Positions 234-21,160 of a stretch of DNA of 64,000 bases are shown one piece after another. The notes beneath the pieces were generated by a model. It worked only from the letters and a program-made list of their open reading frames with translations, did not search any database and had not been told where the DNA came from. The stretch is from Candidatus Saccharimonadota bacterium. GTDB lineage: Bacteria; Patescibacteriota; Saccharimonadia; Saccharimonadales; Saccharimonadaceae. The DNA lies in assembly GCA_017511925.1 (NCBI GenBank), contig JAFWHS010000001.1, forward strand, positions 35 to 64,034, written 5' to 3'. The position numbers and the translations under genes were made by a program. Position 1 is the first letter of the stretch. Each line of letters begins with the position of its first letter.

Positions 234-536
234 ATTTAGTGAGGGGCGACCAGACATACTTATTCGGTTATGCATGGTCGTAGACTGGTGTATTGACCAC
301 CCCGAATACACTGCGAAGATCAAGGTTATACCTAAGAAAGACTACCCGGTGCTAATGCCGTGCGAGTTCTGAGATATACATATACAGGCAAAGAGATTCG
401 AACTTTTAAGGATTTCTGGCCCAACTGGAGCCGGAGAGACTTAAAACAATGACAATGAAGAAAATAAAGGAAATACAATGTCAATGGTAGACTTGCACTC
501 AATGATATAATTAAAATAGTAAACAAGGACTTATTT

Positions 537-1079
537 ATGCCAAGACCACGCAACAAACAGGACTTATTAAAAGCCGGCGAAGAGTACTACGCTAAGCTAA
601 TCGAAATGGCTGATTCAATGAGCGAGAAAGAAATGAACACCGAGTTCGATTTCTCTGGCGACTCATCGAAGAAAGAACGCCACTGGGGGCGCGACAAGAA
701 CCTACGCGATATTTGGGTACATTTATACGAATGGCACCGAATGCTACTTGAATTTGTAGATACGAATCTAAATAAAGGCAGTAACGCACCATTCTTGCCG
801 GAACCATACACTTGGAAGACTTACGGCGATATGAACGTCGAATACTGGAAGAAGCACCAAAAGACTTCGCTCGAAGACGCACGCAAAATGTTCGAAAAAT
901 CGCATAAAGACGTCATGAAGTTAGCTGAAAGCTTAAGCGAAGAACAATTATTCACTAAAGGTATGTATCCTTGGGTTGGCGGTTCAGTGCTTGGCTCATA
1001 TTTCGTTAGCTGTCTATCTTCTCACTACGACTGGGCAATGAAGAAACTCAAAGCACATAAAAAGAATTGTGGGAAATAA
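537..1079 (+). CDS. ClbS/DfsB-family (DUF1706) four-helix-bundle protein
   Basis: 180 aa; the N-terminal PRPRNKQDLL...EY..L and the WHRML / HYDWA blocks match my recollection of the ClbS/DfsB family. Confidence 0.7.
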   Translation: MPRPRNKQDLLKAGEEYYAKLIEMADSMSEKEMNTEFDFSGDSSKKERHWGRDKNLRDIWVHLYEWHRMLLEFVDTNLNKGSNAPFLPEPYTWKTYGDMNVEYWKKHQKTSLEDARKMFEKSHKDVMKLAESLSEEQLFTKGMYPWVGGSVLGSYFVSCLSSHYDWAMKKLKAHKKNCGK

Positions 1080-1370
1080 ATGGCAAGCACCAAAGAATAT
1101 CGCGATTTTATCTTAGAACAACTGTCGGAAGCGCCGAATGTTACCTGTCGGCCGATGATGGGCGAATTCTTGCTATATTCCAATAACGTCTTATTTGGCG
1201 GCATTTATGATGACCGTCTACTTGTAAAAATAGTTCCAGAAAACGAACAATATAAGATGACCGAAGAAATTCCGTACGGCAGCGCGAAGCCAATGTATTT
1301 TGCGGAAGATGTTGACAATAAAGAAAAGCTAGCAGAAATAGTAAAAGCGACCGTAAAAGGACTAAAGTAA
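1080..1370 (+). CDS. TfoX N-terminal domain protein
   Basis: 96 aa; the pattern YRDFILEQL...RPMMGEFLLYSNNVLFGGIYDDRLLVK is typical of the TfoX/Sxy N-domain; the start abuts the previous stop. Confidence 0.65.
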   Translation: MASTKEYRDFILEQLSEAPNVTCRPMMGEFLLYSNNVLFGGIYDDRLLVKIVPENEQYKMTEEIPYGSAKPMYFAEDVDNKEKLAEIVKATVKGLK

Positions 1371-1371
1371 T

Positions 1372-1791
1372 ATGGATCTAAAAAAGATTGAAAGATTTAT
1401 CAATAAACAAAAAGTAAGCATTGTTTGCTCTATCGATGACCAAGAATACCCAAACGTTAAAGCAATGTTAAAACCTAGAAAAAGAGTTGGACTGAAAGAG
1501 TTTTATTTCTCTACCAATACTTCGTCCATGAGAGTTGCACAATATAAGAAAAACCCAAAGGCAAGTATCTATTTCTACCACAAAGGCTTAATTAAGTACG
1601 TTGGCGTTATGCTAAAAGGTAAGATGGAAATTTTAACAGACCAGAAGACAAAGGATATGATTTGGAGACGTGGCGACACGATATTCTACAAGAAAGGCGT
1701 TACAGATCCAGATTATTGCGTCCTAAAGTTTACGGCGACAAGTGGCCGGTATTATTGCGATTTAAAGACAGAAAACTTTGACGTAGATTAA
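1372..1791 (+). CDS. pyridoxamine 5'-phosphate oxidase-like FMN-binding protein
   Basis: 139 aa; split-barrel PNPOx-like pattern (VSIVCSID..YPNVKAM...ASIYFY...VGVMLKGKMEIL); starts 1 nt after the previous stop. Confidence 0.65.
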   Translation: MDLKKIERFINKQKVSIVCSIDDQEYPNVKAMLKPRKRVGLKEFYFSTNTSSMRVAQYKKNPKASIYFYHKGLIKYVGVMLKGKMEILTDQKTKDMIWRRGDTIFYKKGVTDPDYCVLKFTATSGRYYCDLKTENFDVD

Positions 1792-1801
1792 TCTACTCAG
1801 C

Positions 1802-1825
1802 ACCGCCTTTAGAGCGCACCTCTAA
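1802..1825 (+). promoter_or_regulatory. conserved leader motif with hairpin (copy 1)
   Basis: ACCGCCTTTAGAGCGCACCTCTAA; TTAGAG-CGCAC-CTCTAA forms a hairpin/inverted repeat 15 nt before the ATG at 1841; near-identical copy at 7479-7501. Confidence 0.55.
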
Positions 1826-1840
1826 CCGAAAAGAGGCCAT

Positions 1841-2296
1841 ATGACAAAACGCCACCCATTCAAGAAAGCAAAACCCGGCGAACCAATACCAGTTACCGCC
1901 CGGCAACTTGAAAACTTTATGCTCGAACATAATGGTAGATTCAATTCGCGCGATTACGATAAGTTCGAGCGTATGGAACTAACTTGCTCCCCTGTCCGCG
2001 ACGCGATCCACGAACTCAAGACTTATTCCCTAGAAACCCTAGCTCAACGCTTCGATATACGCCTTTTAGGCCGCGGTAAGCGCGTTTTTGCGCGATTAGA
2101 TAGCGAAGACGACACTTGGTACCATTTCTCGCTTGCATACATTCCACGCGCGCTAAATAACCGCGACGTGAATGACGCGATGATTCAGATGTTTTTCATT
2201 GGCAAATGGAGAGTCGATAAGCTTTCGCTCTGGGCGGAGCCAGAAGATATCAACCATTACAACGACGATTCCAATGATTTTCATATTAAACCATAA
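1841..2296 (+). CDS. hypothetical protein, paralog of 7518-7958
   Basis: 151 aa; shares FSLAYIPRALNNRDVN(D/E)A, VTARQL and LWAEP blocks with the 146-aa protein at 7518; AGAGG sits 5 nt upstream. Confidence 0.6.
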   Translation: MTKRHPFKKAKPGEPIPVTARQLENFMLEHNGRFNSRDYDKFERMELTCSPVRDAIHELKTYSLETLAQRFDIRLLGRGKRVFARLDSEDDTWYHFSLAYIPRALNNRDVNDAMIQMFFIGKWRVDKLSLWAEPEDINHYNDDSNDFHIKP

Positions 2297-2382
2297 CATA
2301 AGCATTTTAAGCAAATTGCAAAAATAGAGTAACAGATAATTAGATTTAAACTATTACAGATTAAAAAATGTTCATAAGCCTA

Positions 2383-2410
2383 TTGACAAAAAGCATAATT
2401 TCGTTATAAT
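2383..2410 (+). promoter_or_regulatory. sigma70-type promoter
   Basis: TTGACA (2383-2388), 16 nt spacer, TATAAT (2405-2410); this predicts a ~150-nt leader before the ATG at 2569. Confidence 0.55.
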
Positions 2411-2568
2411 TAAAATAGGCTTGGAGGTAAATGAGGCGCAACGCGTTGAGTTGCACCTCTAAGTTTGTACGTTAAGCGTCCCCTTAGCACATCCTAGGTA
2501 AGTGTAGCTTACTGTACTTTATTAACTAAGCCGTCGAAGGGGCGGCGGCAGAGAGGAAAGTCAAACTA

Positions 2569-2871
2569 ATGCTTAGGTTTTTAATCTACGGTATTACTAA
2601 AGATGACGGACTTTATAGTGATCCAGATGCTGCCATCGACAAATACCATTATTGGCGCAAGACCAGTGATGGCGTCTGGGATAGATTCCAAGATTTCCGC
2701 CAAAATGTCGTAGACAAGGTCAAGACTGGTATGGTCGAAGCTTACACCTATCGCAACAATCAAATTGGTGCGAAATGTATAGTGAAAGTTTCTCCTAACA
2801 TGGTAGAATACTTAAAGACCACACCAAACGGCAATCCGTTTGACAACCTTTCATCTCTTCCAGAGATGTAA
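2569..2871 (+). CDS. hypothetical 100-aa protein
   Basis: ORF with GAGGAAAG upstream; followed by a hairpin terminator; no family recognised. Confidence 0.5.
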   Translation: MLRFLIYGITKDDGLYSDPDAAIDKYHYWRKTSDGVWDRFQDFRQNVVDKVKTGMVEAYTYRNNQIGAKCIVKVSPNMVEYLKTTPNGNPFDNLSSLPEM

Positions 2872-2880
2872 GTTACTAAA

Positions 2881-2903
2881 GGAGTGGCATTTGCCACTCC
2901 TTT
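2881..2903 (+). terminator. hairpin terminator
   Basis: GGAGTGGC-ATTT-GCCACTCC followed by TTT. Confidence 0.45.
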
Positions 2904-2930
2904 AGGTTTAGCATATGGTATAATATTGAT

Positions 2931-3245
2931 ATGGAAGAAGTCAAGGCGGCAGTGGTAAAATTCACAAAAGACAGAGACTGGGATCAGTTTCATTCCCCTG
3001 CCAACTTGGCAAAATCAATTGCGATTGAGTCCGGTGAACTTCTTGAATGCTTCCAATGGAACGATAACTACGACAAAAAGGAAGTTTGCAAAGAACTGGC
3101 CGATGTGGTTAACTACGCGATTCTCCTAGCCGACAAGCTCGACGTTAGTCTTGAAGATATTGTTATGGAAAAATTAGAGGAAAACTCTAAAAAGTACCCA
3201 GTTAACAAATCTAAAGGCAATAGTAAAAAATATACGGAATTATAA
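2931..3245 (+). CDS. MazG-like nucleotide pyrophosphohydrolase (YpjD/DCTPP1-like)
   Basis: 104 aa; FTKDRDWDQFHSPANLAKSIAIESGELLECFQW ... ELADVVNYAILLADKLDV...KLEENSKKYP is the all-alpha NTP-PPase signature; TGGTATAAT ends 6 nt before the ATG. Confidence 0.75.
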   Translation: MEEVKAAVVKFTKDRDWDQFHSPANLAKSIAIESGELLECFQWNDNYDKKEVCKELADVVNYAILLADKLDVSLEDIVMEKLEENSKKYPVNKSKGNSKKYTEL

Positions 3246-3246
3246 T

Positions 3247-4974
3247 ATGTCAGAAAAATCCTTCCAAATCAGAAGCTACTCTTTCGACCAAAAAGCAATC
3301 AGCAGCTTGGCCATAGAAGATCATTTAGAAGAAAACTGGCCAGTAGTTTATCAGATTTACAACAACCAGCAAATTTACATTGGCGAAACTACAAATCTTA
3401 AAAACCGCATGAACCAGCACCTAGCGAATGTCGAGAAGTCGAGCCTCAGACATGGATCAGTAAAAGTAGTTTTCGATGAAACGTTTAACAAAAGTGCTGC
3501 ACTAGATTTAGAGTCTTACCTTATCCAATATTTTAGCGGTGACGGAAAGTTTAAGGTTTTAAATCGCAACGACGGCATGTGCGACCGCGATTATTACGAT
3601 AGAGCCAACTATCGCAAAACTTTCGAAGAAATCTGGAACAGACTTCGCGAGCTAAAAATTGCTGATAAAACTATTTCAGAGATTAATAATTCCGAGCTGT
3701 TTAAGTTCTCTCCATACAAGAACCTAAACTTTGAGCAGCTAAATGTAGTGACTGAGATTATCCAAAATATCGACGAAGCCATTACGCACGATGTTAAAAG
3801 CCTTTCAGTTATCGATGGCGATGCTGGTACCGGTAAAACTATCGTTATTATGTATCTCGCAAAACTATTAGCCGATCTACAATCATTCGACAACCAAAAC
3901 GATGATATTGACGACGAATCAAACTTCAATATTTTCTTTGAACTGGAACATATTAACCAGAACTTTAAGAACAAAAGCATTGCCCTAGTAATTCCACAGC
4001 CATCACTATACGGCCGCATCCGTAAGATTTTCGACAAAATCGATCTCGGCGATGCAAATATTAGAATCTTTTCACCGATCCAATTTGGCAAATGTGACGA
4101 TAATTTCGACATTACATTAGTAGACGAAGCACATCTTCTGAAAGTTGGTGTTACTGGTACGCTAGGTAAACAAGTCCACGAGATTGACCAGAAGATTTTC
4201 GGCAATACCGGCATTCACTCGGAACTAGATTGGATCATGGCTAAATCCAAGAATGTAGTTCTAGTATTTAGCGACCAACAGCGCATTCGCCCAGCCAATA
4301 TTAATCGTAGCGATATCTTACAGTATGCAGACGAGTTTAATAAACGCGAATATTATCTCAAAACTCAAATGCGTTCGCTTGGCGGCAAAAAATATATCGA
4401 TTATATTCACGATATTCTGTCAAACGGCTTTAGGCCTAGAGAAAAAGAAACTTTCAAAGGATTTGAAGCGAAAATTTTCGATAACATCAAAGACTTTGCG
4501 GAAGCTATGGAAAAGCGTGAGGCTGAATATGGATTGTCTCGCATGGTGGCCGGTTTTGCTTGGAAATGGAATTCCAAAAACAATAAAAGCGCGTATGACA
4601 TCGAAATCGATGGCATGAAATTCCGCTGGAATAGCACTCAGAATAACTGGATCGGCTCCAAGAACGCGCCAAAAGAAGTTGGTAGCATTTACACCGTGCA
4701 AGGTGATGACCTAAATTATGTAGGAATTATCATTGGTAACGATTTGATTTATCGCGACGGAAAACTCGTGTTCAATCGCAAAGCTTGCGCAGATTCCGGT
4801 GCCATGAAGCGTAGTCAACGCCAAGTTGCTAATGATGAGCAAATCAATGAAGACGATATGCTGGAACAAGTGTTAAGAACCTACAGGATTCTCATGAACC
4901 GCGCAGTTAAAGGTGTTTATATTTATATTTGCGATAAACAATTAAACGAATATTTAAAACGATATTTCAACTAA
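3247..4974 (+). CDS. GIY-YIG nuclease domain fused to a DUF2075 / Schlafen-like P-loop ATPase
   Basis: 575 aa. The N-terminus VVYQIYNNQQIYIGETTNLKNRMNQH is GIY-YIG-like. There is a Walker A (DGDAGTGKT) and a Walker B-like motif (ITLVDEAH). The ATG is 1 nt after the mazG-like stop. Confidence 0.65.
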   Translation: MSEKSFQIRSYSFDQKAISSLAIEDHLEENWPVVYQIYNNQQIYIGETTNLKNRMNQHLANVEKSSLRHGSVKVVFDETFNKSAALDLESYLIQYFSGDGKFKVLNRNDGMCDRDYYDRANYRKTFEEIWNRLRELKIADKTISEINNSELFKFSPYKNLNFEQLNVVTEIIQNIDEAITHDVKSLSVIDGDAGTGKTIVIMYLAKLLADLQSFDNQNDDIDDESNFNIFFELEHINQNFKNKSIALVIPQPSLYGRIRKIFDKIDLGDANIRIFSPIQFGKCDDNFDITLVDEAHLLKVGVTGTLGKQVHEIDQKIFGNTGIHSELDWIMAKSKNVVLVFSDQQRIRPANINRSDILQYADEFNKREYYLKTQMRSLGGKKYIDYIHDILSNGFRPREKETFKGFEAKIFDNIKDFAEAMEKREAEYGLSRMVAGFAWKWNSKNNKSAYDIEIDGMKFRWNSTQNNWIGSKNAPKEVGSIYTVQGDDLNYVGIIIGNDLIYRDGKLVFNRKACADSGAMKRSQRQVANDEQINEDDMLEQVLRTYRILMNRAVKGVYIYICDKQLNEYLKRYFN

Positions 4975-4993
4975 AAACTACATAATTTAATTG

Positions 4994-6490
4994 TTATGTT
5001 TCATTATTATGGAACATGCCTTGTTTATTATTTCTAAAAACCAAATCATCAAACTTTTCGTGAAGTAAGTCTAATCTATGGCCTAGTGGAGCAATTTTCG
5101 CAGCATCGACTAAATTTCTTAAATCATTATCGTCCAAAGCTATTATGTAGCCATGATTGTCTATCATAGCATCTATGCACATTTTATTTATTCTTGTTCT
5201 ATTTGAAATTCTGCGAGATACTGATATCCCAAACTCGCCCTTGTCTGGGCCAAACCTTCCAGATAACTGATCAATTTCAGGATTACCAATATCGTCATTA
5301 TAATTTTTACACTCAATATACACATATGGAGCGTTAAAATGTTGCCCCAACCACCAGAAAAAGTCATCCTTATCCACATTGCTATATACTATATCCACAA
5401 TTTTACCACCATTGTTAATCCTTGCCTGATAATTTGGTCGAGCCAAATACGGATAAAACAATGCATTGAAGAGAGCTAAAATAGCAGTTTCATAATATTT
5501 CGCATTATCCCTACCAGGCATAGTTTCTAAGACTCTATTCAAAAGCAAATCGTAATCTACCGGCGGTGTGTCCATATAATCGGTAAAATCCTGATGCATT
5601 AAAGCTGGGCTCGGATTTTCATTTTTCTCTTTTTTGTATTGGGCTAATAGATCCGGATATTTTGTAGTATAATCATAATTCAACATCTTTAGATGCTTTT
5701 TATTTTCTATACCACGACGAGATAATACATCTTTTTTATATGGCAACTTCTGTTCGCCGGTTGTTTTTAGTATCCTCACCAAACCATCCGCAACATCTTC
5801 TTGCTGAAGCCTAGCCACTATATACTTGTTAAAGTATTCGTCTGCGCTATACGTTGCCTCTCTCCTTACTATAGATTTCGGCACTAACGTTAAGATATCT
5901 TCTCTACCGTCTATAACTACAACTGGCTGTCTAAAGCTTTTCGTCTCCCATATTCTCTTCTGCGGATTCCAAATTTTCTTGCTTTTCCTAACTTCAAGCT
6001 CAACACCAAACTGATCGAATTGCGTTTGTGTATATTCTATTAAAGGCTCCCTGATAATGTTCGTAACTATATCAGAAATCATATCAGAAGATATTCCCTC
6101 AATAAGAAGAATTGTATCTTCTATATCTTCTATCATGCCGCTCTTAATGGCGACACTCTCTTTTAGAGCATGCCACATTTTCACGGCTAATTTTTCCCCG
6201 ATGCCTCTTCCATTTGTCTTATTTTTTGAAAAACCCAACTTCGTTTCACTCGGTTCGCATAATTCTTTAAGTAAAGCTCTTGCTTTTTTATTATCACCTT
6301 CGTGCATGGTAGATAAGACATGACTAAAGTAGTCCTTTATTAATCTGCAACAACGTAGCCCCCACTCCGCCTTATCATTATTCAATGCAGCAGGATCAAT
6401 AAATAAACAGGAATCAGAGCACAAATCAACATCCACAAAGTCCAAAGATGGTTGATTGACCCCAAGATTATAATATTCGGAAACCCTCAT
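4994..6490 (-). CDS. hypothetical protein with a C-terminal PD-(D/E)XK nuclease-like motif
   Basis: 498 aa; GGKIVDIVYSN...(about 25 aa)...YVYIECKNY matches the D...(D/E)xK restriction-endonuclease-fold signature; convergent with 3247-4974. Confidence 0.5.
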   Translation of the reverse strand: MRVSEYYNLGVNQPSLDFVDVDLCSDSCLFIDPAALNNDKAEWGLRCCRLIKDYFSHVLSTMHEGDNKKARALLKELCEPSETKLGFSKNKTNGRGIGEKLAVKMWHALKESVAIKSGMIEDIEDTILLIEGISSDMISDIVTNIIREPLIEYTQTQFDQFGVELEVRKSKKIWNPQKRIWETKSFRQPVVVIDGREDILTLVPKSIVRREATYSADEYFNKYIVARLQQEDVADGLVRILKTTGEQKLPYKKDVLSRRGIENKKHLKMLNYDYTTKYPDLLAQYKKEKNENPSPALMHQDFTDYMDTPPVDYDLLLNRVLETMPGRDNAKYYETAILALFNALFYPYLARPNYQARINNGGKIVDIVYSNVDKDDFFWWLGQHFNAPYVYIECKNYNDDIGNPEIDQLSGRFGPDKGEFGISVSRRISNRTRINKMCIDAMIDNHGYIIALDDNDLRNLVDAAKIAPLGHRLDLLHEKFDDLVFRNNKQGMFHNNET

Positions 6491-6520
6491 ATAATTATTA
6501 TAACATAAATATAAAAATAA

Positions 6521-14690: not shown

Positions 14691-14717
14691 AAAAAAGCAC
14701 CCTTTCTGGTGTTTTTT
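14691..14717 (-). terminator. terminator downstream of tRNA-Lys
   Basis: AAAAAAGCACC-CTTTCT-GGTGTTTTTT; on the minus strand the T-run follows the stem immediately 3' of the tRNA. Confidence 0.45.
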
Positions 14718-14725
14718 GGTGATTT

Positions 14726-14802
14726 TGGTGAGCCGGGAGAGACTCGAACTCTCAACACCCTGCTTAAGAGGCAGGTGCTCTAACCAGTTGAGCTACCGGC
14801 CC
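14726..14802 (-). tRNA. tRNA-Lys (anticodon CTT), intact, with encoded CCA
   Basis: rc = GGGCCGG TA GCTC AACTGGTTA GAGC A CCTGC CTCTTAA GCAGG GTGTT GAGAG TTCGAGT CTCTC CCGGCTC A CCA. All four stems pair, with one G-U in the acceptor stem. Confidence 0.9.
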
Positions 14803-14910: not shown

Positions 14911-16020
14911 TTAACTTAAAATTAATTTACCAAGTTTTGTTGATGCCATCCGCTCACATTCAGAATTCGCGTGTTGATATATCCTCAATGTCATTTCAAG
15001 CGTAGCATGCCCTAAAATACTCTGGCAAGTCTTCGGATCAACACCCTCATCACGCATAAAACATGCCGCCATATGACGAAGTGCATGGATCTTAATATGT
15101 GGCAACCCTGCACGCTTTGCTATATTCTGAAAGTCCCTATAAAAGTTTCTCGGTGCTATAGGAGTGCCATTTCTAGTTTGGAAAATTAACCCACTTGCTC
15201 CAGGAACAAATCGTTCTTTTAAAATACCGATTAGCCATTCATTTAAAGGCAAAGTTCTATCACTTTTATCCGTCTTTAACTCACCAACTCGAGGTCGATT
15301 ATCAATGCTAACAATTTGTTGCTTTATATGAATACGCTCGTTGGAGAAATCAACATCTTCCCAACGAAGGCCTAACACCTCGCCACGCCTTAAACCATAA
15401 TTTGCCATCAAAGCATAAGCTGCATAATAAGGACTCGTATTTTTGGCCTCGGCTAAAAATTTTCTTAACTGTTCTTTATTCCAAACAACAGGCTCTTTAG
15501 GTTTAATTGTTTTAACTTTGTAATCTCTTGCAGGATTGTTGAGGACATATTTGTGTTTCTTTGCACTAGTCAACATAGATGATAGGGCTTTTTTAGTAGC
15601 ACGCGCTTGATGTTTTGAATGTTTTTTAATTAATTTAAAAAGTCTCTCCACATCGTTCACATCAAGATTAGCAAGCTTTTTCTTACCTAATATAGGCAAA
15701 ATATACTTTTTATATAGTCTCTTATATAACTCTACCGTAGTCGGGCGTAGGCCAACATCTTCATCACTAATCTCTTCTAACCAACATTCGTAAAACTTCT
15801 CGACAGTTATACCTGCCCCCATTGTGATCTCACCTCTATCTCGCTGCGCTATGCGTTGTGCTAGTTGTTTCCTGGCCTCTTCTTGAGTCCTGCAACAGAT
15901 ATCTTGCATGACTTTATGTTCTCCAGTTGGCAACACCACAGTATATCGTGCAGCCCAACGACCATCCTTGCGTTTACTAATTGAACCAGATCCTCGTGGT
16001 CCTCTTTTTGTTTTACCCAT
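14911..16020 (-). CDS. tyrosine recombinase / phage-type integrase
   Basis: 369 aa; N-terminal SAM-like domain; C-terminal LRRGEVLGLRWEDV, HALRHMAA, LGHATLEMTLRIYQH (R..HxxR..Y catalytic pattern). Confidence 0.85.
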   Translation of the reverse strand: MGKTKRGPRGSGSISKRKDGRWAARYTVVLPTGEHKVMQDICCRTQEEARKQLAQRIAQRDRGEITMGAGITVEKFYECWLEEISDEDVGLRPTTVELYKRLYKKYILPILGKKKLANLDVNDVERLFKLIKKHSKHQARATKKALSSMLTSAKKHKYVLNNPARDYKVKTIKPKEPVVWNKEQLRKFLAEAKNTSPYYAAYALMANYGLRRGEVLGLRWEDVDFSNERIHIKQQIVSIDNRPRVGELKTDKSDRTLPLNEWLIGILKERFVPGASGLIFQTRNGTPIAPRNFYRDFQNIAKRAGLPHIKIHALRHMAACFMRDEGVDPKTCQSILGHATLEMTLRIYQHANSECERMASTKLGKLILS

Positions 16021-16021
16021 T

Positions 16022-16444
16022 TTAATATCCTCCTATTCCGGCCATCTCTCTAGCCTCATTAACCTTTTCTTCTAAAAAATTATTCAATTCAACAACAGGG
16101 ATCAATCTTCGTCCTCCTAGCTTAAAAGAAGGTAACTCATTTGCGTAAATAAGATCATATACCAAATTCCTTCCTATGCCTAAATAATTTGCGGCTTCTC
16201 TTACTCCCACTGCTCCTTTATTCCTAAAGCATATAACATTACCTTTATCAAACAACATGCTCATATCCCTATTATTGCGCGCTTTGACTATCACGTCAGC
16301 CCCTATAATGGCATTTTCTTCTGAAGGGGTGGCGAGAATATCTTTTTTATTACCCAAGCTCTCAAATAACGAGTGCATGTAGCTTGTACCGTCATTTCTG
16401 ATGTTGTTTTCCAACCTATTAGTTAATAGTAAATTCTTCATCAT
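16022..16444 (-). CDS. excisionase-family helix-turn-helix protein
   Basis: The C-terminal VREAANYLGIGRNLVYDLIYANELPSFKLGGRRLIPVVELNNFLEE is a MerR/Xis-type HTH. The start is chosen at the ATG with AAGGAGG 6 nt upstream; the track starts at 16468. Confidence 0.6.
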   Translation of the reverse strand: MMKNLLLTNRLENNIRNDGTSYMHSLFESLGNKKDILATPSEENAIIGADVIVKARNNRDMSMLFDKGNVICFRNKGAVGVREAANYLGIGRNLVYDLIYANELPSFKLGGRRLIPVVELNNFLEEKVNEAREMAGIGGY

Positions 16445-17591
16445 CTTTATCCTCCTTATTATCCTCATAATGAACTAAGCTTGTTCCTATATTATTTATG
16501 GTCTCCCCAATAATTTGAATATACGGATATTCAACCTTGCTATCCAATAATACAAAGAGTTCTTTCTTCGTCCGACTCCACAACCTACTATCGTTATATT
16601 TGCAAAAGGCTTTTTTCACTTTATTTAAGCCGCATTCTCCAGTTAATATCGAAAAACCTAATTTGGCAAAAGACTTTTGCGGAGAATTACTCATCAATAA
16701 ACTCTCAATAACCTCTAATTGATGATCTGGCCCTAGCGGTTCAATCTCTGTTCCAATTGTTTTCACTAACCTTCCCCAATATTTCATCAGGAATTTACGA
16801 GCCAGGTCTGCAGAAAACATATCTTTAAAAGTAATCCTATCTGTCGATTCATTTAAAGATTTAAGATCAACCTTTAGCTGCTTCGTGTTTTGTTCTTGAA
16901 CCTCTACCCTAACAACCTGCAAAAGATTAGCATCCTGTAAACCAATAAATAATTTTTCTATATCACACAAAGAGTCAGATGTATTACGAATTTCTGCAAT
17001 TTTATCATAGACAATTAATTGTCTCCCTTTTGGCCCCTCCCTATAAAGATCCCCCACTCTATACTGAACTTGAGCATACCTAGAGCCTATTCTATGCTCT
17101 GACCGCTCCAAAATACTTGCTAAAGTATTCGTTGATGCTCGTCCTGGCAATATTATATTTTTACCAAAGTCCACCCTTCTTACAATAGCTCTCCGAATAT
17201 CATCCTGCGTAATTTTATTAGGTAGATTTAACAATTTTAACTTACTATACAATTTACCTACCACATCTTCAAATTGATCTTCCCCTACCTCCACAATATT
17301 ATTTCCATATAGAAACTTTGGTACGGACATTGTGATACGATAAGCAGAACAATATAGACGACGATCTCCCTTCTTTTTTAATGGATTAGGATAATAAACA
17401 TAATTAACTTGTGGTAAATATTCTCCTGGGACAATTTCACCAACTGGCCAACACAATTTTATATTTTGATATCCAACAAAACTTCCTTTTCCATCGCTAG
17501 TTTTCTTATTTGTGATTTCAACTGTAGTCTCAAAGTCCTTTTCATCTAAACGTTTTCCTATTGTTATTTCTAATGTGACCGTATCGATCAT
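16419..17591 (-). CDS. putative rolling-circle replication initiator (phage/plasmid gene II/X-like)
   Basis: 390 aa. The N-terminal MIDTVTLEI and ITMSVPKFLYGNNIVEV resemble the MIDxLxL... and SxPKxLxGxN blocks I recall from the II/X Rep family. The assignment is from memory only. Confidence 0.45.
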   Translation of the reverse strand: MIDTVTLEITIGKRLDEKDFETTVEITNKKTSDGKGSFVGYQNIKLCWPVGEIVPGEYLPQVNYVYYPNPLKKKGDRRLYCSAYRITMSVPKFLYGNNIVEVGEDQFEDVVGKLYSKLKLLNLPNKITQDDIRRAIVRRVDFGKNIILPGRASTNTLASILERSEHRIGSRYAQVQYRVGDLYREGPKGRQLIVYDKIAEIRNTSDSLCDIEKLFIGLQDANLLQVVRVEVQEQNTKQLKVDLKSLNESTDRITFKDMFSADLARKFLMKYWGRLVKTIGTEIEPLGPDHQLEVIESLLMSNSPQKSFAKLGFSILTGECGLNKVKKAFCKYNDSRLWSRTKKELFVLLDSKVEYPYIQIIGETINNIGTSLVHYEDNKEDKDDEEFTIN

Positions 17592-17805: not shown

Positions 17806-18303
17806 CTAGAAATTAGGGTCGAATCGATATCCAACATTTCGTTCCACTGGTATAAAATTATGCTCAATTGCTCCAGTCGCCGCATGAAAAGTTCTACGCA
17901 TCTCTGTCAAATAGCGTGTAAGAGTCTTTTCATCTATTCTATTCCTCGATTCAAATAATATCCCTAGTAATTCCCTACTATTTAGGGCTCTCCCATTATC
18001 ACAATAAGCTGCCACCAAGGCCACCGCAATAATAGCCTTAGCACATGAAAAATCACACGACTTATTGTCATAATATACCTGTTTATCATCAAACGAAAAC
18101 TTAGTATCACCAACCTGTGTTACCGGCAAACTAGTCTCTACCTTAAAAACATCATTCCTACTAACAATCTGAATTATTCTTTCACCATCTATATTTATCT
18201 CGGTATCAGAAATAACTTTACCATTATTATAGTTAACATGCACATCAGCTGGCACCACTATAATTCGTATATTACTCTCAACATGGAAACTTTTTTCTGC
18301 CAT
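17806..18303 (-). CDS. winged-helix (OmpR/PhoB C-terminal type) DNA-binding protein
   Basis: The C-terminus SRELLGILFESRNRIDEKTLTRYLTEMRRTF....PVERNVGYRFDP is Trans_reg_C-like. I prefer the ATG at 18303, directly after the upstream stop; the track uses a GTG at 18330. Confidence 0.55.
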   Translation of the reverse strand: MAEKSFHVESNIRIIVVPADVHVNYNNGKVISDTEINIDGERIIQIVSRNDVFKVETSLPVTQVGDTKFSFDDKQVYYDNKSCDFSCAKAIIAVALVAAYCDNGRALNSRELLGILFESRNRIDEKTLTRYLTEMRRTFHAATGAIEHNFIPVERNVGYRFDPNF

Positions 18304-18305
18304 AG

Positions 18306-18704
18306 TCAAATAGTCTCCACTTTTACCCACCTACCATCATTACCGACAAGAGAACGATCCAATATACCGATATCTATAAGCACTACATACTTTGTCGACA
18401 ATACGGAACCTCCCCGAAAAAGACTGCGCAGAAACTTTTCAGAATCAACAATAAGATCAGGGTTCTCGTCCTCCATATCATCACGACTCACAATAAATGG
18501 CTCAAGATCCTCAATGACCTGAGCATCATCAAACAACCCCTTTGCCTCTATTGTCAAACTTCCATTTTTATTTGCAAATACGCCTATAATAGTCCTTCCC
18601 AATCTGTTCTTTAAAGAAGATAGGAGGTTATTATCTAAACATTTTACAAAATAGATCCCTTCCCCATCTATACCACTAACAATTCTATCATCTAGACTGT
18701 CCAT
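18306..18704 (-). CDS. hypothetical protein
   Basis: 132-aa ORF, co-directional and contiguous with the winged-helix gene. Confidence 0.45.
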   Translation of the reverse strand: MDSLDDRIVSGIDGEGIYFVKCLDNNLLSSLKNRLGRTIIGVFANKNGSLTIEAKGLFDDAQVIEDLEPFIVSRDDMEDENPDLIVDSEKFLRSLFRGGSVLSTKYVVLIDIGILDRSLVGNDGRWVKVETI

Positions 18705-18921
18705 ATAACATCATCTTACCAACCCTATCAGACAAAGTCAATACAGGGGTGGCAGAATATTCATAGACACGCTCAAAATTATCCCAAGAGAAATTAGGTG
18801 GCGAGGAATAATCATATAATAGCCCTTCAGTATATTAATGTATATCAGAAAAGCGCAAGAAAAGTACATTGCCGTATTGGTGGTGCGTATTGGAAAAAAT
18901 ATAAAATAATGTATAATTGTA

Positions 18922-19061
18922 GTGTCTAGTTACATAAAATCAGGTAGGGAATACGGGCGACTGCCGTATGCAATAGTAATTGCCCATGCGTGAGACATCC
19001 GTGTCTCAGTCGGGCAATCCGCCTATCTGATTAATGTGGCTAGACACCCAACACGGGTGTC
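18922..19061 (+). other. highly structured non-coding region (candidate 5' UTR riboregulator, ncRNA or single-strand origin)
   Basis: It starts ~5 nt after TGTATAAT (18910-18917). A ~25-bp imperfect helix pairs 18922-18948 with 19022-19047 and encloses hairpins ATACGG/CCGTAT (18951-18969) and ATTGCCC..TGAGACA-TCCG-TGTCTCA..GGGCAAT (18979-19018). An alternative hairpin GACACCC-AACAC-GGGTGTC (19043-19061) competes with the long helix. Confidence 0.5.
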
Positions 19062-19118
19062 TCACTTATTCTAAGAGAGTCCTCGTTTGGTTATTAATAC
19101 TTAAAATAAGGAGGATGT

Positions 19119-20048
19119 GTGAGAAACACTACAAGAGAAGGGGACACGCCGAATCGTGGAAGCGATAAAAAACCACGAGGGGAAAACACAACAAATAACA
19201 AGAGTAAAACTACAGGCAGCACCCTCAAGGCTGGTTTCGTCATGAGCATTATAGCTATAGCATTATGTTGGGTTCCAGCGATTGGTTTGGTGCTATCTTT
19301 GATTGCAATTGGTTTAATGCTACCAGAGATAATCAAGGCAATAAAGATTAAGAAGCTCCCAATAGAGGGGTCTGGCAAATTTATAGCTGGTTGTATTATG
19401 TCGGTAATTACTGTGGTGATCGGCCTTATCATAACTATTAGTGTGTTTGGACCAAAACCATCTTCAATACCGAAAGAAAAGCCTCAATTTGAACAAGAAT
19501 ATAGTTCTCTCAAAAAATTGGACCTAAACGGCGTAATAGTAAGTGAGGCTTGCGCCAAACTTCGTGAGGCTGGTTGGAGAGTAAGGGGAGTTGGCAATGG
19601 TTATATGGGCGAAAAAAGTGAGGAAAGCGATTGTAGCGATACTGTACATAAAGTTTCAACTGTAAATTATTCTGATAAAAAATATTCAGATTATGATGGT
19701 AGCGAAAATCATGATTATGAGAGTGTATTTATTGAGTTTGTAAGTAATAATACGAGTAGTTCAAGCTCATCTACTGAGTCGTCGAATAATAGCACTAGCT
19801 CTTCAAGTAACACGAGTTCGTCGAATAATACAAGCTCGTCCTCTTCAAATAGTATGTGCAAAGATGACTACCAGAAGGATTTAGATGCAGCAAAGGCGAG
19901 CTATGAGTATAACGAACAGATATATAACACCTATAAAAATATGTCGGGTGTAGATGCAGATACAGTTAAATCCTATAAGGACGCTCTAGATATATCTAAG
20001 GCTTCTTTAGATACTGCACAAAAGCTCTATGATACTTATTGCAAATAA
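19119..20048 (+). CDS. membrane protein with TM hairpin and Ser/Asn-rich low-complexity linker
   Basis: 309 aa; GTG start with AAGGAGG 4-5 nt upstream; two TM helices (DUF4190-like), a soluble domain, then SNNTSSSSSSTESSNNSTSSSSNTSSSNNTSSSSSNS. Confidence 0.55.
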   Translation: MRNTTREGDTPNRGSDKKPRGENTTNNKSKTTGSTLKAGFVMSIIAIALCWVPAIGLVLSLIAIGLMLPEIIKAIKIKKLPIEGSGKFIAGCIMSVITVVIGLIITISVFGPKPSSIPKEKPQFEQEYSSLKKLDLNGVIVSEACAKLREAGWRVRGVGNGYMGEKSEESDCSDTVHKVSTVNYSDKKYSDYDGSENHDYESVFIEFVSNNTSSSSSSTESSNNSTSSSSNTSSSNNTSSSSSNSMCKDDYQKDLDAAKASYEYNEQIYNTYKNMSGVDADTVKSYKDALDISKASLDTAQKLYDTYCK

Positions 20049-20066
20049 TTGAATATAGGAGAAAAA

Positions 20067-20489
20067 ATGAGTAATAATTATAAAGAATCCACGGTGGTGG
20101 TGGCGCCGAAAATAATTCTAATAATAGCAACTACGCTCTGTGCGGCTAGCGGGTTTATACCTTGGTTAGATATTGGTGGGGACAATGGTCCTCTGGTTCC
20201 GATTTATATTATATCTGGATTAATTCCACTAATTTTGAATATCATAGCCTTAATAATAAAGCGTCGTGGCGTGAGCTTAGCTTCCAATATATTAGGTATC
20301 ATTGGTGGCTTGATAGCTATGCTATATGTTGCATTTTTCTTCTTGGGTTCAAGTATGTATGCTAGTAATTTCATTTTTAACCATCTAGCTCTGGGCGTTT
20401 GGATAGCCCTAGTCTCTGGGCTAATAATGTTTGTCGTATCGATTGTGTCAATAGTGAAAGATAAAAAGAAAAGTCATGTAGCGGAATAA
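20067..20489 (+). CDS. small integral membrane protein (about 4 TM helices)
   Basis: ATG at 20067 with AGGAG 5 nt upstream; the track starts at a TTG at 20049. Confidence 0.55.
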   Translation: MSNNYKESTVVVAPKIILIIATTLCAASGFIPWLDIGGDNGPLVPIYIISGLIPLILNIIALIIKRRGVSLASNILGIIGGLIAMLYVAFFFLGSSMYASNFIFNHLALGVWIALVSGLIMFVVSIVSIVKDKKKSHVAE

Positions 20490-20508
20490 TTGGAATAAAA
20501 TGCGTTTT

Positions 20509-20544
20509 AAAGCCCCTCATAGCCATCTGGAGGGGCTTTTGTTG
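20509..20544 (+). terminator. rho-independent terminator
   Basis: AAAGCCCCTC-ATAGCCATCTG-GAGGGGCTTTTGTTG. Confidence 0.6.
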
Positions 20545-20599
20545 TATAAGTAGTTTGTAGAAAATTGATTTAAGGCATACGCTACGCTATAATGATGGC

Positions 20600-20767
20600 A
20601 TGGCAAACAATAGTTTTAATCCACTATACCTATCAAATGAAGAAACAAGTGATTTTGAAGCCTCTATGCGGGAGGCCGAACTTTTTGACGACACAATGAA
20701 ATTGGAAAGAGAGTGGAAAGTAAGGAGAGGGTTGATAGACGAAGATGAAGAAGATCTGTTCTTATAG
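20600..20767 (+). CDS. small acidic 55-aa ORF
   Basis: MANNSFNPLYLSNEETSDFEASMREAELFDDTMKLEREWKVRRGLIDEDEEDLFL; TATAAT (20588-20593) lies 6 nt upstream; below the track cutoff. Confidence 0.3.
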   Translation: MANNSFNPLYLSNEETSDFEASMREAELFDDTMKLEREWKVRRGLIDEDEEDLFL

Positions 20768-20982
20768 TGTTAAGGAGGCCTAAAAATCCCGCAAAGGCTT
20801 GTGTATGACTTAAATTGTTTTATAAATACTGCTTTGAAATATAAGTTGATATTACAAATGATAGCATATATTACATAGATTAACTTTTTGGGGGAGGGGG
20901 GATTTTCTACCCCACCCCCTGCCCCCTCCCCTAGCAAGGGGCGGGGGATCAAAACTCTAGATATTCCTACGATCGCCATTTT

Positions 20983-21004
20983 GACACCTTATCTGCCACC
21001 TTAT
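20983..21004 (+). repeat. tandem G(A/C)CACCTTAT motifs near the E2 right end
   Basis: GACACCTTAT-CT-GCCACCTTAT, in the same orientation as 14663-14685. Confidence 0.5.
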
Positions 21005-21121
21005 AAAATAAATCAACTCAAATAACATAGACAGCACAAACAACTATTTACTTGAAATTTCAAGAATAAAAAACTATAGAAATAGAGGCCACAAAAAATC
21101 GTCATTTTCTGACGAATATAA

Positions 21122-21132
21122 TTAAGAGGCTC
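21122..21132. repeat. 11-bp direct repeat TTAAGAGGCTC (right junction of E2)
   Basis: Identical to 14580-14590. Confidence 0.85.
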
Positions 21133-21160
21133 GTGCTCTAACCAGCTGAGCTACCGGCCC
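21122..21160 (-). pseudogene. 5' half of the split tRNA-Lys(CUU)
   Basis: rc = GGGCCGG TA GCTC AGCTGGTTA GAGC A CGAGC CTCTTAA, after which the tRNA sequence stops. It complements 14542-14590 into a full cloverleaf. Confidence 0.85.

What the first reader, a model, noticed from the sequence alone, without database searches (positions are those of the whole stretch)
393..21160. Three integrative islands stacked at the same tRNA-Lys site (about 20.7 kb accretion hotspot)
I read the region right to left from the host tRNA 5' half.
- E2 (14591-21121) has a tyrosine integrase.
- E1 ends with an intact large serine recombinase that runs into the displaced tRNA 3' half.
- E0 ends with a 5'-truncated homologue of that recombinase (6521-~6905). 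It is followed by TGGTGAGCG...CGAACC...GTAAGAC (6928-6970), which looks like a decayed copy of the same tRNA 3' half.
- At 393-412 there is one more T-arm-like string, GAGATTCGAAC...TTAAGGA.

E0 and E1 also share a paralogous 146-151-aa gene with a near-identical leader.

The model is successive insertions into the same tRNA, each pushing the previous 3' half and island leftwards. The three units are about 6.5, 7.6 and 6.5 kb. The E0 and E1 left boundaries are weakly supported.
Basis: inference. Interest (0 to 1): 0.65.

Follow-up and report, generated by a model that had tools for sequence, protein, structure and literature searches.

The report
Three mobile elements stacked at tRNA-Lys
In a gut Saccharibacteria genome, three integrative elements of two unrelated kinds sit side by side at one tRNA-Lys gene: two serine-recombinase islands at the tRNA's last 7-8 bases, and one tyrosine-integrase element that cuts the tRNA in its anticodon loop and carries a replacement tRNA.

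Summary

- **E2 (14591-21121).** It encodes a tyrosine integrase, Xis and Rep. It is flanked by an 11-bp repeat, TTAAGAGGCTC, which is the anticodon loop plus 4 bp of stem. It splits the host tRNA-Lys(CTT) and carries its own intact tRNA-Lys(CTT) at 14726-14802. Five related loci show the same design. This matches the principle of "tRNA-dependent lysogeny" (Guerrero-Bustamante & Hatfull 2024), here in a non-phage element.
- **E1 (6936-14549) and E0 (244-6935).** Both are large-serine-recombinase (LSR) islands that recombine within TGGTGAG(C), the last 7-8 nt of the tRNA. No tRNA 3' half is displaced.
- **6928-6970.** Only 6928-6935 comes from the tRNA. The rest is E1's conserved left arm.
- **393-412.** This is internal E0 sequence. 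The true E0 left junction is TAGTGAG at 237-243.

Metagenome contigs show sites without E1, sites without E2, and an E2 circle junction.

One addition: across Patescibacteria this LSR family ends inside an antisense tRNA in 41 of 53 loci. The LSR ORF spans attP, so integration swaps a conserved 42-aa C-terminal tail for a tRNA-antisense tail.

The parts
1..236 (.). Chromosomal flank downstream of the tRNA-Lys gene, with a terminator-like hairpin at about 205-228.
   Evidence: 82% identical to L093 12362-12623, where it also abuts an E0-type left end. The hairpin resembles the flank left of the single E1-type element in L013. No homology to L011 upstream of 236.
237..243 (+). E0 left junction core TAGTGAG. 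This is the displaced tRNA 3' terminus TGGTGAG with one G>A change.
   Evidence: L011 and L093 have TGGTGAG|GGGCGA at the homologous position. Homology with L011 starts at 236.
238..372 (+). E0 left-end ORF segment encoding the 44-aa LSR C-terminal tail (SEGRPDILIRLCMVVDWCIDHPEYTAKIKVIPKKDYPVLMPCEF*). It would be joined to the LSR ORF only in the excised circle.
   Evidence: L011 has the same length and the same stop. Differences fall mostly at third codon positions, 12 versus 4 and 3. The same tail is found fused to an LSR in protein P0006.
244..6927 (+). E0 body, a degenerate LSR island. Genes: DUF1706 537-1079, TfoX_N 1080-1370, PNPOx-like 1372-1791, 151-aa family gene 1841-2296, DUF3892 2569-2871, MazG-like 2931-3245, GIY-YIG + SLFN-type helicase 3247-4974, and DUF8370/PDC-M36A 4994-6490 (minus strand).
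   Evidence: Pfam and PADLOC. L011 carries a homologous element with the same ends but Hachiman, DpnII R-M and Abi cargo. A variant in run X26 lacks 2251-6523.
6524..6935 (+). 5'-truncated E0 LSR gene: the last 137 codons, open in frame and ending in the core TGGTGAGC.
   Evidence: 96.6% nt identity to L011 11198-11609, stopping exactly at 6935. Translation matches P0030/P0044-type LSRs.
6928..6935 (+). Hybrid junction core TGGTGAGC: the right end of E0 and the left junction of E1.
   Evidence: Contigs join 6927 to 14542 (skipping 7614 bp) with 8 shared bases in runs X25, X30, X33, X43 and X46.
6929..7063 (+). E1 left arm, which encodes E1's 44-aa LSR tail (GERHLNLYEPLCKTIDYIILDPTWRPTYILVESNIINKPSDFSY*).
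   Evidence: Conserved in L013 and in L015, where the target is tRNA-Leu. Third-position differences dominate.
6936..14541 (+). E1 body, an intact LSR island. Genes: 146-aa family gene 7518-7958, 497-aa membrane protein 8227-9720 (minus), MMPL transporter 9717-11795 (minus), TetR 11868-12476, and the LSR.
   Evidence: Pfam. GC is 0.44-0.48 across the transporter genes, against about 0.38 on either side. The L013 element is homologous at both ends.
12941..14599 (+). E1 large serine recombinase, 552 aa from the M at 12941 (the ORF opens at 12890). Its last 18 codons are antisense to the tRNA 3' half, and the stop lies 9 bp inside E2.
   Evidence: Resolvase + Recombinase + Zn_ribbon_recom domains. 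Homologues at 82-95% identity end ...KLKRLVL*, that is, in an unsplit tRNA.
14542..14590 (-). Host tRNA-Lys(CTT) 3' half, from the anticodon loop to CCA.
   Evidence: Identical to the corresponding part of the L011 tRNA.
14580..14590 (.). E2 direct repeat, left copy (TTAAGAGGCTC): the anticodon loop plus 4 bp of stem.
   Evidence: Contigs join 14579 to 21122 (skipping 6542 bp) with 11 shared bases.
14591..14725 (-). E2 spacer between the junction and the element's tRNA. It holds two 9-bp direct repeats, GCCACCTTA (14663-14671 and 14676-14684), which are candidate arm-type integrase sites, and a hairpin terminator at 14692-14717.
   Evidence: The spacer length is 133-137 bp where both ends are held, and the repeated AAGGTG(T/G)C motif is present in L093, L098 and L099 and partly in L095. 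Terminator scan.
14726..14802 (-). E2-borne intact tRNA-Lys(CTT), the replacement tRNA.
   Evidence: ARAGORN. 67/77 identical to the host tRNA; 8 of the 10 changes are in stems, all compensatory, and no pair is broken.
14911..17591 (-). E2 recombination and replication module: tyrosine integrase 14911-16020, HTH_17 excisionase-like protein 16022-16468, and rolling-circle Rep (Phage_CRI domain) 16419-17591.
   Evidence: Pfam and PHROGs.
17806..21121 (.). E2 cargo of unknown function: ORFs of 174 and 132 aa (minus strand), 309 and 146 aa (plus strand) and small ORFs.
   Evidence: No Pfam, PHROGs or PADLOC hits.
21122..21160 (-). Host tRNA-Lys(CTT) 5' half, including the right copy of the E2 repeat (21122-21132).
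   Evidence: The flank 21122-21239 matches L011 next to its intact tRNA.

Best explanation
The region is an integration hotspot at the tRNA-Lys(CTT) gene (minus strand, near RNase Y) of a gut Candidatus Saccharibacteria (Nanosyncoccus-like) genome. Two unrelated recombinase systems have used it.

(1) LSR islands (E0 and E1).
- They recombine inside TGGTGAG(C), the last 7-8 nt of the tRNA including CCA. The tRNA itself is left unchanged.
- A new element lands between the tRNA and the previous element. E0 (244-6935) arrived first and later lost the first two-thirds of its LSR gene. E1 (6936-14549) arrived second.
- The LSR gene sits at the right edge of the element, and its ORF spans attP. In the excised circle it would end in a conserved 42-aa tail encoded at the element's left end. 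In the integrated state that tail is replaced by about 17 residues encoded antisense to the tRNA.
- Cargo differs between family members: candidate phage-defence genes in E0, and a TetR-MMPL transporter module in E1.

(2) E2 (14591-21121).
- It is a small integrase/Xis/rolling-circle-Rep element.
- It recombines in the 7-nt anticodon loop CTCTTAA. In this window the shared core is 11 bp.
- Its attP carries no tRNA 3' half, so integration splits the host tRNA and inactivates it.
- A complete tRNA-Lys(CTT) 135 bp inside the element substitutes for it. That tRNA has a recoded anticodon stem, which I infer protects it from the element's own integrase.

Shown: the junctions, the repeats, unoccupied sites, a circle junction for E2, and conservation of both designs in other genomes.

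Inferred: catalysis by the named recombinases, the order of events, the function of the replacement tRNA, and any role for the tail swap.
For: Junctions and cores:
- Searches give the sequences. TGGTGAGC occurs only three times in the 64 kb: at 6928, at 14542 and in E2's tRNA at 14726.

E0 ends:
- L011 homology covers 236-1071 and 6524-6935 and stops exactly at the cores.
- L011 and L093 have TGGTGAG|GGGCGA at the left junction.

E1 ends:
- L013 and L015 share the left arm, starting at the core.
- Contigs join 6927 to 14542 with 8 shared bases in five runs.

E2:
- The 11-bp repeat is present at both ends.
- In run X26 a contig 99.8% identical to E1 runs on into an intact tRNA, so that strain lacks E2.
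- The joint that skips E2 is seen in X9, X10 and X12. A circle junction, 21121 to 14580, is seen in X11, where E2 is covered and the LSR flank is not.
- Integrase homologues at 57-75% identity in L093, L095 and L097-L099 fit the same architecture: host 5' half, cargo, Xis, Int, intact tRNA-Lys, 133-137-bp spacer, host 3' half. Both host halves are held only in L093 and L095. L097 ends before the 3' half, and L098 and L099 start after the 5' half.
- All replacement tRNAs differ from the host in the anticodon stem. Three of the four keep every cloverleaf pair. L098's has one U-U mismatch at pair 30-42.

LSR family:
- In 41 of 53 genome loci across Patescibacteria the LSR ORF stops in, or directly abuts, an antisense tRNA. 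Twelve tRNA isotypes are used.
- Tails of 38-55 aa are encoded at element left ends in at least 11 loci and appear fused to LSRs in P0006, P0022, P0094 and P0102.
- Third-codon-position changes dominate in the tails.

The principle behind E2 matches PMC10865867.
Against: - No site lacking E0 was found. E0's left junction is present in every contig that spans it and is shared with a different species (L093). E0's mobility is therefore historical only.
- The contigs that lack E1 come from genomes with intact E0-type LSRs that are 95-98% identical to the window's remnant. They are not the same strain.
- The E2 circle junction rests on one low-depth contig (2.7x) and could also be a tandem duplication.
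- E1 must have used E0's attR as its target rather than a native attB. The left half-sites of these two are unlike each other, which is unusual for LSRs and is unexplained.
- The LSR crossover dinucleotide is not determined.
- Whether the genome has another tRNA-Lys(CTT) outside the window is unknown.
- No promoter consensus was found for the replacement tRNA.
Confidence: 0.85

Rival explanations
1. All three units integrated by one mechanism into the same sublocation. Each carried a tRNA 3' half and pushed the previous 3' half leftwards. Decayed 3' halves remain at 6928-6970 and 393-412.
For: A truncated LSR homologue does precede 6928. TGGTGAGC at 6928-6935 does derive from the tRNA. Tandem accretion of this kind is well known for tyrosine-integrase islands.
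Against: Beyond 8 nt, 6936-6970 aligns to the tRNA no better than random positions in the window. It is homologous to the left arms of elements in L013 and L015, the latter at a tRNA-Leu. 393-412 is internal to the E0-type left end. Homology with L011 and L093 places the junction at 237-243. E2 uses a different recombinase and a different site.
Confidence: 0.05
2. The tRNA at 14726-14802 is the original host gene, and the two 'halves' are relics of a duplicated tRNA. Under this reading E2 did not disrupt a functional tRNA, and its tRNA is not a replacement.
For: A 39-nt repeat at 92% identity links 14764-14802 with 21122-21160. This could be read as an att repeat covering the tRNA 5' half.
Against: The two halves are complementary to each other in the anticodon stem (CGAGC/GCTTG), and E2's tRNA is self-complementary in its own stem (CCTGC/GCAGG). 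Cross-combinations mispair. The joined halves are 100% identical to the intact tRNA of L011, which sits in the same genomic context. A near-identical strain has E1 followed by an intact tRNA and no E2. Of the five independent E2-like loci, the two that hold both ends (L093, L095) show the same split-plus-intact arrangement, and the other three fit it as far as their contigs reach.
Confidence: 0.04
3. The overlap between the LSR ORF and the tRNA, and the tail encoded at the left end, are passive by-products of attP lying at the end of the gene. The tail swap has no effect on recombinase activity or directionality.
For: LSR C-termini beyond the zinc-ribbon and coiled-coil region vary in length. 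The tRNA-encoded tails differ with the target tRNA and often stop after only about 7 residues (GARDWT*). This suggests the integrated-state tail is not itself under selection.
Against: The left-end tails keep a constant length (44 aa in both E0 and E1 types), a shared motif (LC...D[WY].I..P.[YW]) and a C-terminal aromatic residue across LSRs that are only 30-50% identical. Third-position substitutions dominate. This points to selection on a protein that can only be made from the circular form or from a tandem junction.
Confidence: 0.5

Closest known systems
tRNA-dependent lysogeny of actinobacteriophages (Fionnbharth and other cluster K4, L and X phages; Guerrero-Bustamante & Hatfull, mBio 2024, PMC10865867)
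   Same: A tyrosine integrase is used. attB lies within a tRNA gene (tRNA-Lys in the type case). attP and attB share only about 8-11 bp, so no functional tRNA is rebuilt. [quoted passage not shown] Putative arm-type sites flank the core.
   Different: E2 is a 6.5-kb integrase/Xis/rolling-circle-Rep element with no virion genes, so it is not a phage. The host is a Saccharibacterium rather than an actinobacterium. The tRNA is Lys-CTT, not Lys-TTT. The replacement tRNA sits right next to attP (133-137 bp away) in every relative where both are held, and always has a recoded anticodon stem. Essentiality of the tRNA was not tested.
Large serine recombinase (serine integrase) integrative elements such as phiC31, Bxb1, A118, TP901-1, SPbeta and SCCmec Ccr
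   Same: The recombinase has the same domain order (Resolvase, Recombinase, zinc ribbon). The elements are bounded by attL and attR, which share only a short core. The recombinase gene lies at one end of the element.
   Different: From my own knowledge, characterised LSRs mostly target protein-coding genes and share a 2-bp core. Here the target is the 3' terminus of a tRNA gene, with 7-8 bp of identity. The ORF runs across attP, so integration exchanges its C-terminal tail. The family is concentrated in Patescibacteria and uses at least 12 tRNA isotypes. I found no description of this in the searchable literature.
Tandem genomic-island arrays at tRNA genes (Islander/TIGER-type tDNA islands; Williams 2002 sublocation classes)
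   Same: Several islands are stacked at one tRNA gene, with the oldest furthest from the gene, and they can be delimited by repeats of tRNA sequence. E2's crossover in the 7-nt anticodon loop matches the classical anticodon-loop sublocation.
   Different: Classical islands use tyrosine integrases and restore the tRNA with a 3' fragment carried in attP. Here two of the three units use a serine recombinase at the extreme 3' end, and the third does not restore the gene.
SSV-type (fusellovirus) integrases, whose gene is split by integration
   Same: attP lies inside the recombinase ORF, so the integrated and free forms encode different proteins.
   Different: Those are archaeal tyrosine recombinases whose gene is cut into two large parts. 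Here only the last 42 residues or so of a serine recombinase are exchanged, and the catalytic and DNA-binding domains stay intact.

Membership tests
Large serine recombinase (serine integrase) | N-terminal resolvase catalytic domain, followed by a Recombinase domain and a zinc-ribbon domain | tested here: met
   PF00239 3.6e-23, PF07508 2.8e-10, PF13408 2.8e-6, in that order. Invariant R/S residues lie in the YARKSS motif across 15 homologues.
Large serine recombinase (serine integrase) | Element bounded by attL and attR that share a short crossover core; precise unoccupied site in relatives | tested here: met
   The 7-8-bp core TGGTGAG(C) is at 237-243, 6928-6935 and 14542-14549. The joint that skips E1 shares 8 bases.
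Large serine recombinase (serine integrase) | 2-bp staggered crossover, and recombination catalysed by this protein | not testable with these tools
   Needs in vitro or in vivo recombination assays.
tRNA-dependent lysogeny (PMC10865867) | Tyrosine integrase with attB inside a tRNA gene | tested here: met
   PF00589 2.5e-29. The repeat lies in the anticodon loop and stem of tRNA-Lys(CTT).
tRNA-dependent lysogeny (PMC10865867) | Short common core (about 10 bp), so that no functional tRNA is rebuilt at either junction | tested here: met
   The core is 11 bp here and 7-8 bp in L095 and L098. No tRNA sequence lies on the element side of either junction. ARAGORN finds no tRNA at the junctions.
tRNA-dependent lysogeny (PMC10865867) | [quoted passage not shown] | tested here: met
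   tRNA-Lys(CTT) at 14726-14802. A tRNA-Lys(CTT) is also found in L093, L095 and L097-L099.
tRNA-dependent lysogeny (PMC10865867) | The disrupted host tRNA is essential or single-copy, and the element's tRNA is required for survival of integrants | not testable with these tools
   Only 64 kb of the genome is available, and no genetics is possible.
tRNA-dependent lysogeny (PMC10865867) | The element is a temperate phage | tested here: not met
   No virion or lysis genes in 6.5 kb. The only PHROGs hits are to the excisionase-like protein. The Rep has no tblastn hit in 50,697 phage records.
Classical tDNA island (Williams 2002; Islander) | attP carries the tRNA 3' segment, so the target gene is restored | tested here: not met
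   E2 does not restore the gene. E0 and E1 overlap the gene by only 7-8 nt and use a serine recombinase.
Integrative mobilizable/conjugative element (IME/ICE/AICE) | Relaxase, oriT or FtsK-like transfer function | tested here: inconclusive
   None was detected in E0, E1 or E2. Relatives do carry such genes: FtsK_gamma proteins in L095, and Replic_Relax plus a TrwB-like coupling protein next to a family LSR in L102 and L103.

The most novel reading that the evidence does not exclude
A Patescibacteria-wide family of large serine recombinases targets the last 7-8 nt of tRNA genes. Its ORF crosses attP, so the conserved 42-residue C-terminal tail is made only from the excised circle (or from a tandem junction). 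The integrated copy makes a protein with a short tail encoded antisense to the tRNA instead. In this reading the tail exchange acts as a built-in sensor of integration state that biases the enzyme towards integration or excision, partly or wholly replacing a separate directionality factor.
Probability: 0.3. Interest if true: 0.8.

Novelty: new variant of a known kind. Interest (0 to 1): 0.6.

Why it matters
- It corrects the map of this locus. The true boundaries are 237-243, 6928-6935, 14542-14549, 14580-14590 and 21122-21132.
- It shows one tRNA gene exploited at two sublocations by two recombinase classes.
- It extends the 2024 principle of a tRNA-disrupting element that carries a replacement tRNA from actinophages to a small non-phage element in Saccharibacteria, whose known hosts are Actinobacteria. 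It also suggests a self-protection rule, the recoded anticodon stem.
- It reveals a large family of tRNA-end-targeting serine recombinases in Patescibacteria. These carry defence and transporter cargo and build tandem arrays.
- Because tRNA 3' ends are conserved, and genetic tools for Saccharibacteria and other CPR bacteria are scarce, these LSR/att pairs are candidate integration tools.
- The ORF that spans attP offers a testable idea about how LSR directionality is controlled.

Tried and rejected
- **DNA alignment of the proposed relics.** Aligning 6900-7000 and 380-430 to both tRNA-Lys sequences, followed by a whole-window local-alignment scan, gave scores of 7-12.5. Many unrelated positions score as high or higher. 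The 'decayed tRNA' reading was rejected.
- **Exact-protein contig look-ups** for the right-flank gene, the LSR and DUF1706 returned only contigs with the same E0/E1/E2 arrangement, so they gave no polymorphism.
- **Search for a site lacking E0** in eight runs found none.
- **The 146/151-aa family.** No Pfam, PHROGs or PADLOC hit. The AlphaFold model has pLDDT 79.8, but no PDB fold match has E<0.1. The function remains unknown. The idea that it is the LSR's directionality factor is untested.
- **E2 Rep against phage records:** no match. The E2 integrase is at most 35% identical to any phage integrase.
- **Literature.** Searches for Saccharibacteria or Patescibacteria together with serine recombinase/integrase and tRNA found nothing relevant.
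- **Promoter scan** upstream of the E2 tRNA was uninformative.
- **E2 as an element that swaps the tRNA 5' half** (using the 39-nt repeat) was considered and rejected, because each tRNA's two halves are matched to each other.

Full report
**What is in the sequence**

ARAGORN finds one intact tRNA-Lys(CTT) at 14726-14802 on the minus strand. Reading the DNA shows two further pieces of a second tRNA-Lys(CTT). A 3' half lies at 14542-14590 and a 5' half at 21122-21160. They are separated by 6.5 kb and share the 11-bp repeat TTAAGAGGCTC at 14580-14590 and 21122-21132. Joined, the halves form a correct cloverleaf. The joined sequence is identical to the intact tRNA in a related 283-kb contig (L011).

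Between the halves lie a tyrosine integrase (14911-16020), an HTH_17 excisionase-like gene, a rolling-circle Rep with a Phage_CRI domain, and unannotated ORFs. To the left, a large serine recombinase (LSR, 12890/12941-14599) reads antisense through the tRNA 3' half. Its tail is ...SGEPGGTRTHDTKLKRLIV*.

**Organism**

LSR homologues and related loci come from Candidatus Saccharibacteria, mainly Nanosyncoccus and Nanosyncoccaceae MAGs from ruminant and other gut samples. The right flank (CmpB-like, CYTH, RNase Y, DnaJ, type-IV-secretion-like genes) is syntenic with those genomes.

**E2 (14591-21121)**

Several results show that E2 inserted into a previously intact tRNA.
- A contig in run X26 is 99.8% identical to E1 over 2.5 kb and continues from 14590 straight into GTGCTCTAACCAGCTGAGCTACCGGCCC. 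That strain has an intact tRNA and no E2.
- Contigs in X9, X10 and X12 join 14579 to 21122, skipping 6542 bp, with 11 shared bases.
- In X11, E2 is covered but the LSR flank is not, and one contig joins 21121 back to 14580. This is the junction expected of an excised circle. It rests on 2.7x depth.

Neither junction rebuilds a tRNA, because the element side of both junctions is non-tRNA sequence. Instead the element carries a whole tRNA-Lys(CTT) 135 bp from its end.

This is a family design. Integrase homologues at 57-75% identity were followed into L093, L095 and L097-L099.
- All five loci have an intact tRNA-Lys(CTT) downstream of the integrase.
- All fit the order: host 5' half, cargo, Xis, Int, tRNA, spacer of 133-137 bp, host 3' half. 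Both host halves are held only in L093 and L095. L097 ends before the 3' half, and L098 and L099 begin after the 5' half.
- Across these loci the exact repeat shrinks to CTCTTAA, the 7-nt anticodon loop, which is the likely overlap region.
- The spacer holds a duplicated AAGGTG(T/G)C motif, a candidate arm-type integrase site.

Every element-borne tRNA differs from the host tRNA in the anticodon stem, while the host halves keep CGAGC/GCTTG. Three of the four keep all cloverleaf pairs through compensatory changes. The fourth, L098's, has one U-U mismatch at pair 30-42. I infer that the recoded stem keeps the element's own tRNA from serving as a target for its integrase.

The principle (a short core, no reconstruction, and a same-isotype tRNA on the element) is the one described as tRNA-dependent lysogeny in actinobacteriophages (PMC10865867). 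E2 differs in having no phage genes.

**E1 and E0 are LSR islands that use the tRNA's last 7-8 nt**

The LSR has 3,957 database homologues at E <= 1e-10. Most sampled C-termini are antisense translations of tRNA 3' ends, such as ...GEPGGTRTHDTKLKRLVL* and ...GARDWT*. In 53 genome loci across Patescibacteria, the LSR ORF stops in or directly abuts an antisense tRNA in 41. The tRNAs used are Lys, Leu, Met, Pro, Asp, Gln, Ser, Val, Gly, Ala, His and Ile.

The remnant ORF at 6644-7063 is the C-terminus of a second LSR type.
- Window 6524-6935 is 96.6% identical to the 3' end of the intact LSR gene in L011. Homology stops exactly at 6935, the end of TGGTGAGC.
- In L011 that octamer continues into the tRNA. 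In the window it continues into GACATCTCAACCTTTACGAACCTCTCTGT.
- That sequence is the conserved left arm of E1-type elements. L013 has TGGTGAGC|gaagtccaaacctttacgaacctctctgt. L015, at a tRNA-Leu, has TGGTGCGC|ggtgtctaaatctctacgaacctctctgt.

So only 8 nt at 6928-6935 come from the tRNA. A local-alignment scan agrees: 6928-6985 and 393-430 score 7-12.5 against the tRNA halves, a level that many unrelated positions in the window also reach.

TGGTGAGC occurs only three times in the 64 kb: at 6928, at 14542 and in the E2 tRNA.

Contigs that join 6927 to 14542 (skipping 7614 bp, 8 shared bases) occur in five runs. They come from genomes with an intact E0-type LSR next to the tRNA, that is, sites without E1.

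**E0's left end**

Homology with L011 begins at window 236. L011 reads ...TGGTGAG|GGGCGAGTAGAAG..., and the window reads ...TAGTGAG|GGGCGACCAGACA... at 237-243. L093, from another species, has the same chromosomal flank (82% identical to window 2-260) and TGGTGAG|GGGCGACC. The window copy therefore carries one G>A change.

The string at 393-412 is inside this conserved left end (L011 849-870) and is not a junction.

E0 thus spans 244-6935 (6.7 kb). Its LSR lacks the first 1.2 kb, so it can no longer move by itself.

No site lacking E0 was found, and contigs from several runs span the junction. A variant in X26 has the same truncation point but lacks 2251-6523. E0 cargo therefore turns over while the dead ends persist.

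**Order of events**

E0 came first, followed by truncation of its LSR. E1 then inserted between E0 and the tRNA. E2 came last, because near-identical E0-E1 strains have an unsplit tRNA. This order is an inference.

**The LSR ORF spans attP**

Translating from the core into each element's left end, in the LSR's reading frame, gives a 44-codon open frame.
- E0: SEGRPDILIRLCMVVDWCIDHPEYTAKIKVIPKKDYPVLMPCEF*
- E1: GERHLNLYEPLCKTIDYIILDPTWRPTYILVESNIINKPSDFSY*

The evidence that these tails are real coding sequence is as follows.
- L011 has the same length and stop as E0, and L013 and L015 the same as E1.
- Comparable tails of 38-55 aa, ending in an aromatic residue, are found at left ends in L027, L029, L036, L041, L045, L048, L057 and L062.
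- Such tails occur fused to LSRs in database proteins P0006, P0022, P0094 and P0102.
- Third-codon-position differences dominate: 12 versus 4 and 3, 15 versus 7 and 6, and 20 versus 13 and 12.
- Only 20% of random positions in this region have 43 or more open codons.

So the excised form would encode an LSR with a conserved C-terminal tail. Integration replaces it with a tRNA-antisense tail. In the window, the dead E0 LSR is fused to E1's tail, which produces the ORF 6644-7063. Whether this exchange affects activity is unknown. I rate a regulatory role at about 0.3.

**Cargo**

- E0 carries DUF1706, TfoX_N, a PNPOx-like gene, DUF3892, a MazG-like gene, a GIY-YIG + SLFN-type helicase (weak hits to PDC-S14 and Nhi) and DUF8370 (PADLOC candidate PDC-M36A, 4e-46).
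- The homologous element in L011 carries Hachiman, a DpnII restriction-modification system and an Abi gene. Another relative carries a restriction-modification system.
- E1 carries TetR, an MMPL transporter and a 497-aa membrane protein, at higher GC.
- Both E0 and E1 carry a 146-151-aa protein found only in this clade: 118 homologues, no Pfam domain, and a confident AlphaFold model with no PDB match.
- Some family members sit next to a relaxase-like protein and a coupling protein.

**Verdict**

The stack and its rough unit sizes are right. The mechanism, two boundary calls and the two 'tRNA relics' are not.

Tandem islands at a tRNA gene are ordinary. Two things are less ordinary. The first is a tRNA-splitting element with a replacement tRNA in a non-phage element of Saccharibacteria. 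The second is a Patescibacteria-wide family of LSRs that target the tRNA 3' end and whose ORF spans attP. I found no published account of the second.

Noticed in passing
window 9702-9722 and 20635-20655: A perfect 21-nt inverted repeat links E1 and E2. One copy covers the start codon region (MKKQVI) of the 497-aa membrane protein gene on the minus strand. The other lies inside the small ORF 20600-20767, in a different frame. Shuffles expect 0 matches even when 3 mismatches are allowed. It could reflect antisense pairing or be a recombination relic.
   Followed up: partly
window about 21250-34000 (from synteny with L001 and L011): To the right of the tRNA lie CmpB-like, CYTH, RNase Y and DnaJ genes, followed by type-IV-secretion-like genes (glucosaminidase, VirB4/TraG-like ATPase, TraC-like, PrgI-like). 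The RNase Y, DnaJ, TraG-like and TraC-like genes also lie to the right of the tRNA in L011, though partly inverted and separated by other genes, so they appear to be core genome rather than a fourth island.
   Followed up: partly
L095 10528-10549: A further 22-nt copy of the tRNA-Lys 3' end (positions 56-77, 100% identical) lies 57 bp beyond the displaced 3' half. It suggests that yet another element family uses a T-loop or 3'-end sublocation of the same tRNA.
   Followed up: no
L011 621-702: To the left of L011's intact E0-type element lies another LSR C-terminal remnant ending in TGGTGAG. Tandem arrays with dead recombinase stubs therefore recur at this locus in other genomes. L062 shows two left ends at a tRNA-Gly.
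   Followed up: partly
window 14911-16020 (E2 integrase): Beyond its Saccharibacteria relatives, the next-closest integrase homologues in the protein search (32-38% identity) that carry a source name are mostly from Actinobacteria (Gordonia, Nocardia, Streptomyces, Amycolatopsis); most hits are unnamed. Actinobacteria are the phylum that hosts Saccharibacteria epibionts, and the one where tRNA-dependent lysogeny was described.
   Followed up: no
window 21095-21121 (E2 end next to the host 5' half): A hairpin followed by a T-run (cgtcagaaaatgacgatttt on the tRNA-sense strand) starts about 7 bases after the truncated host tRNA 5' half, and L093, L095 and L097 each have a hairpin with a T-run at the same place. 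It may terminate transcription of the orphaned 5' half.
   Followed up: no
window 40282-40374: A tRNA-Ser(GCT) on the minus strand. It was not examined for islands.
   Followed up: no
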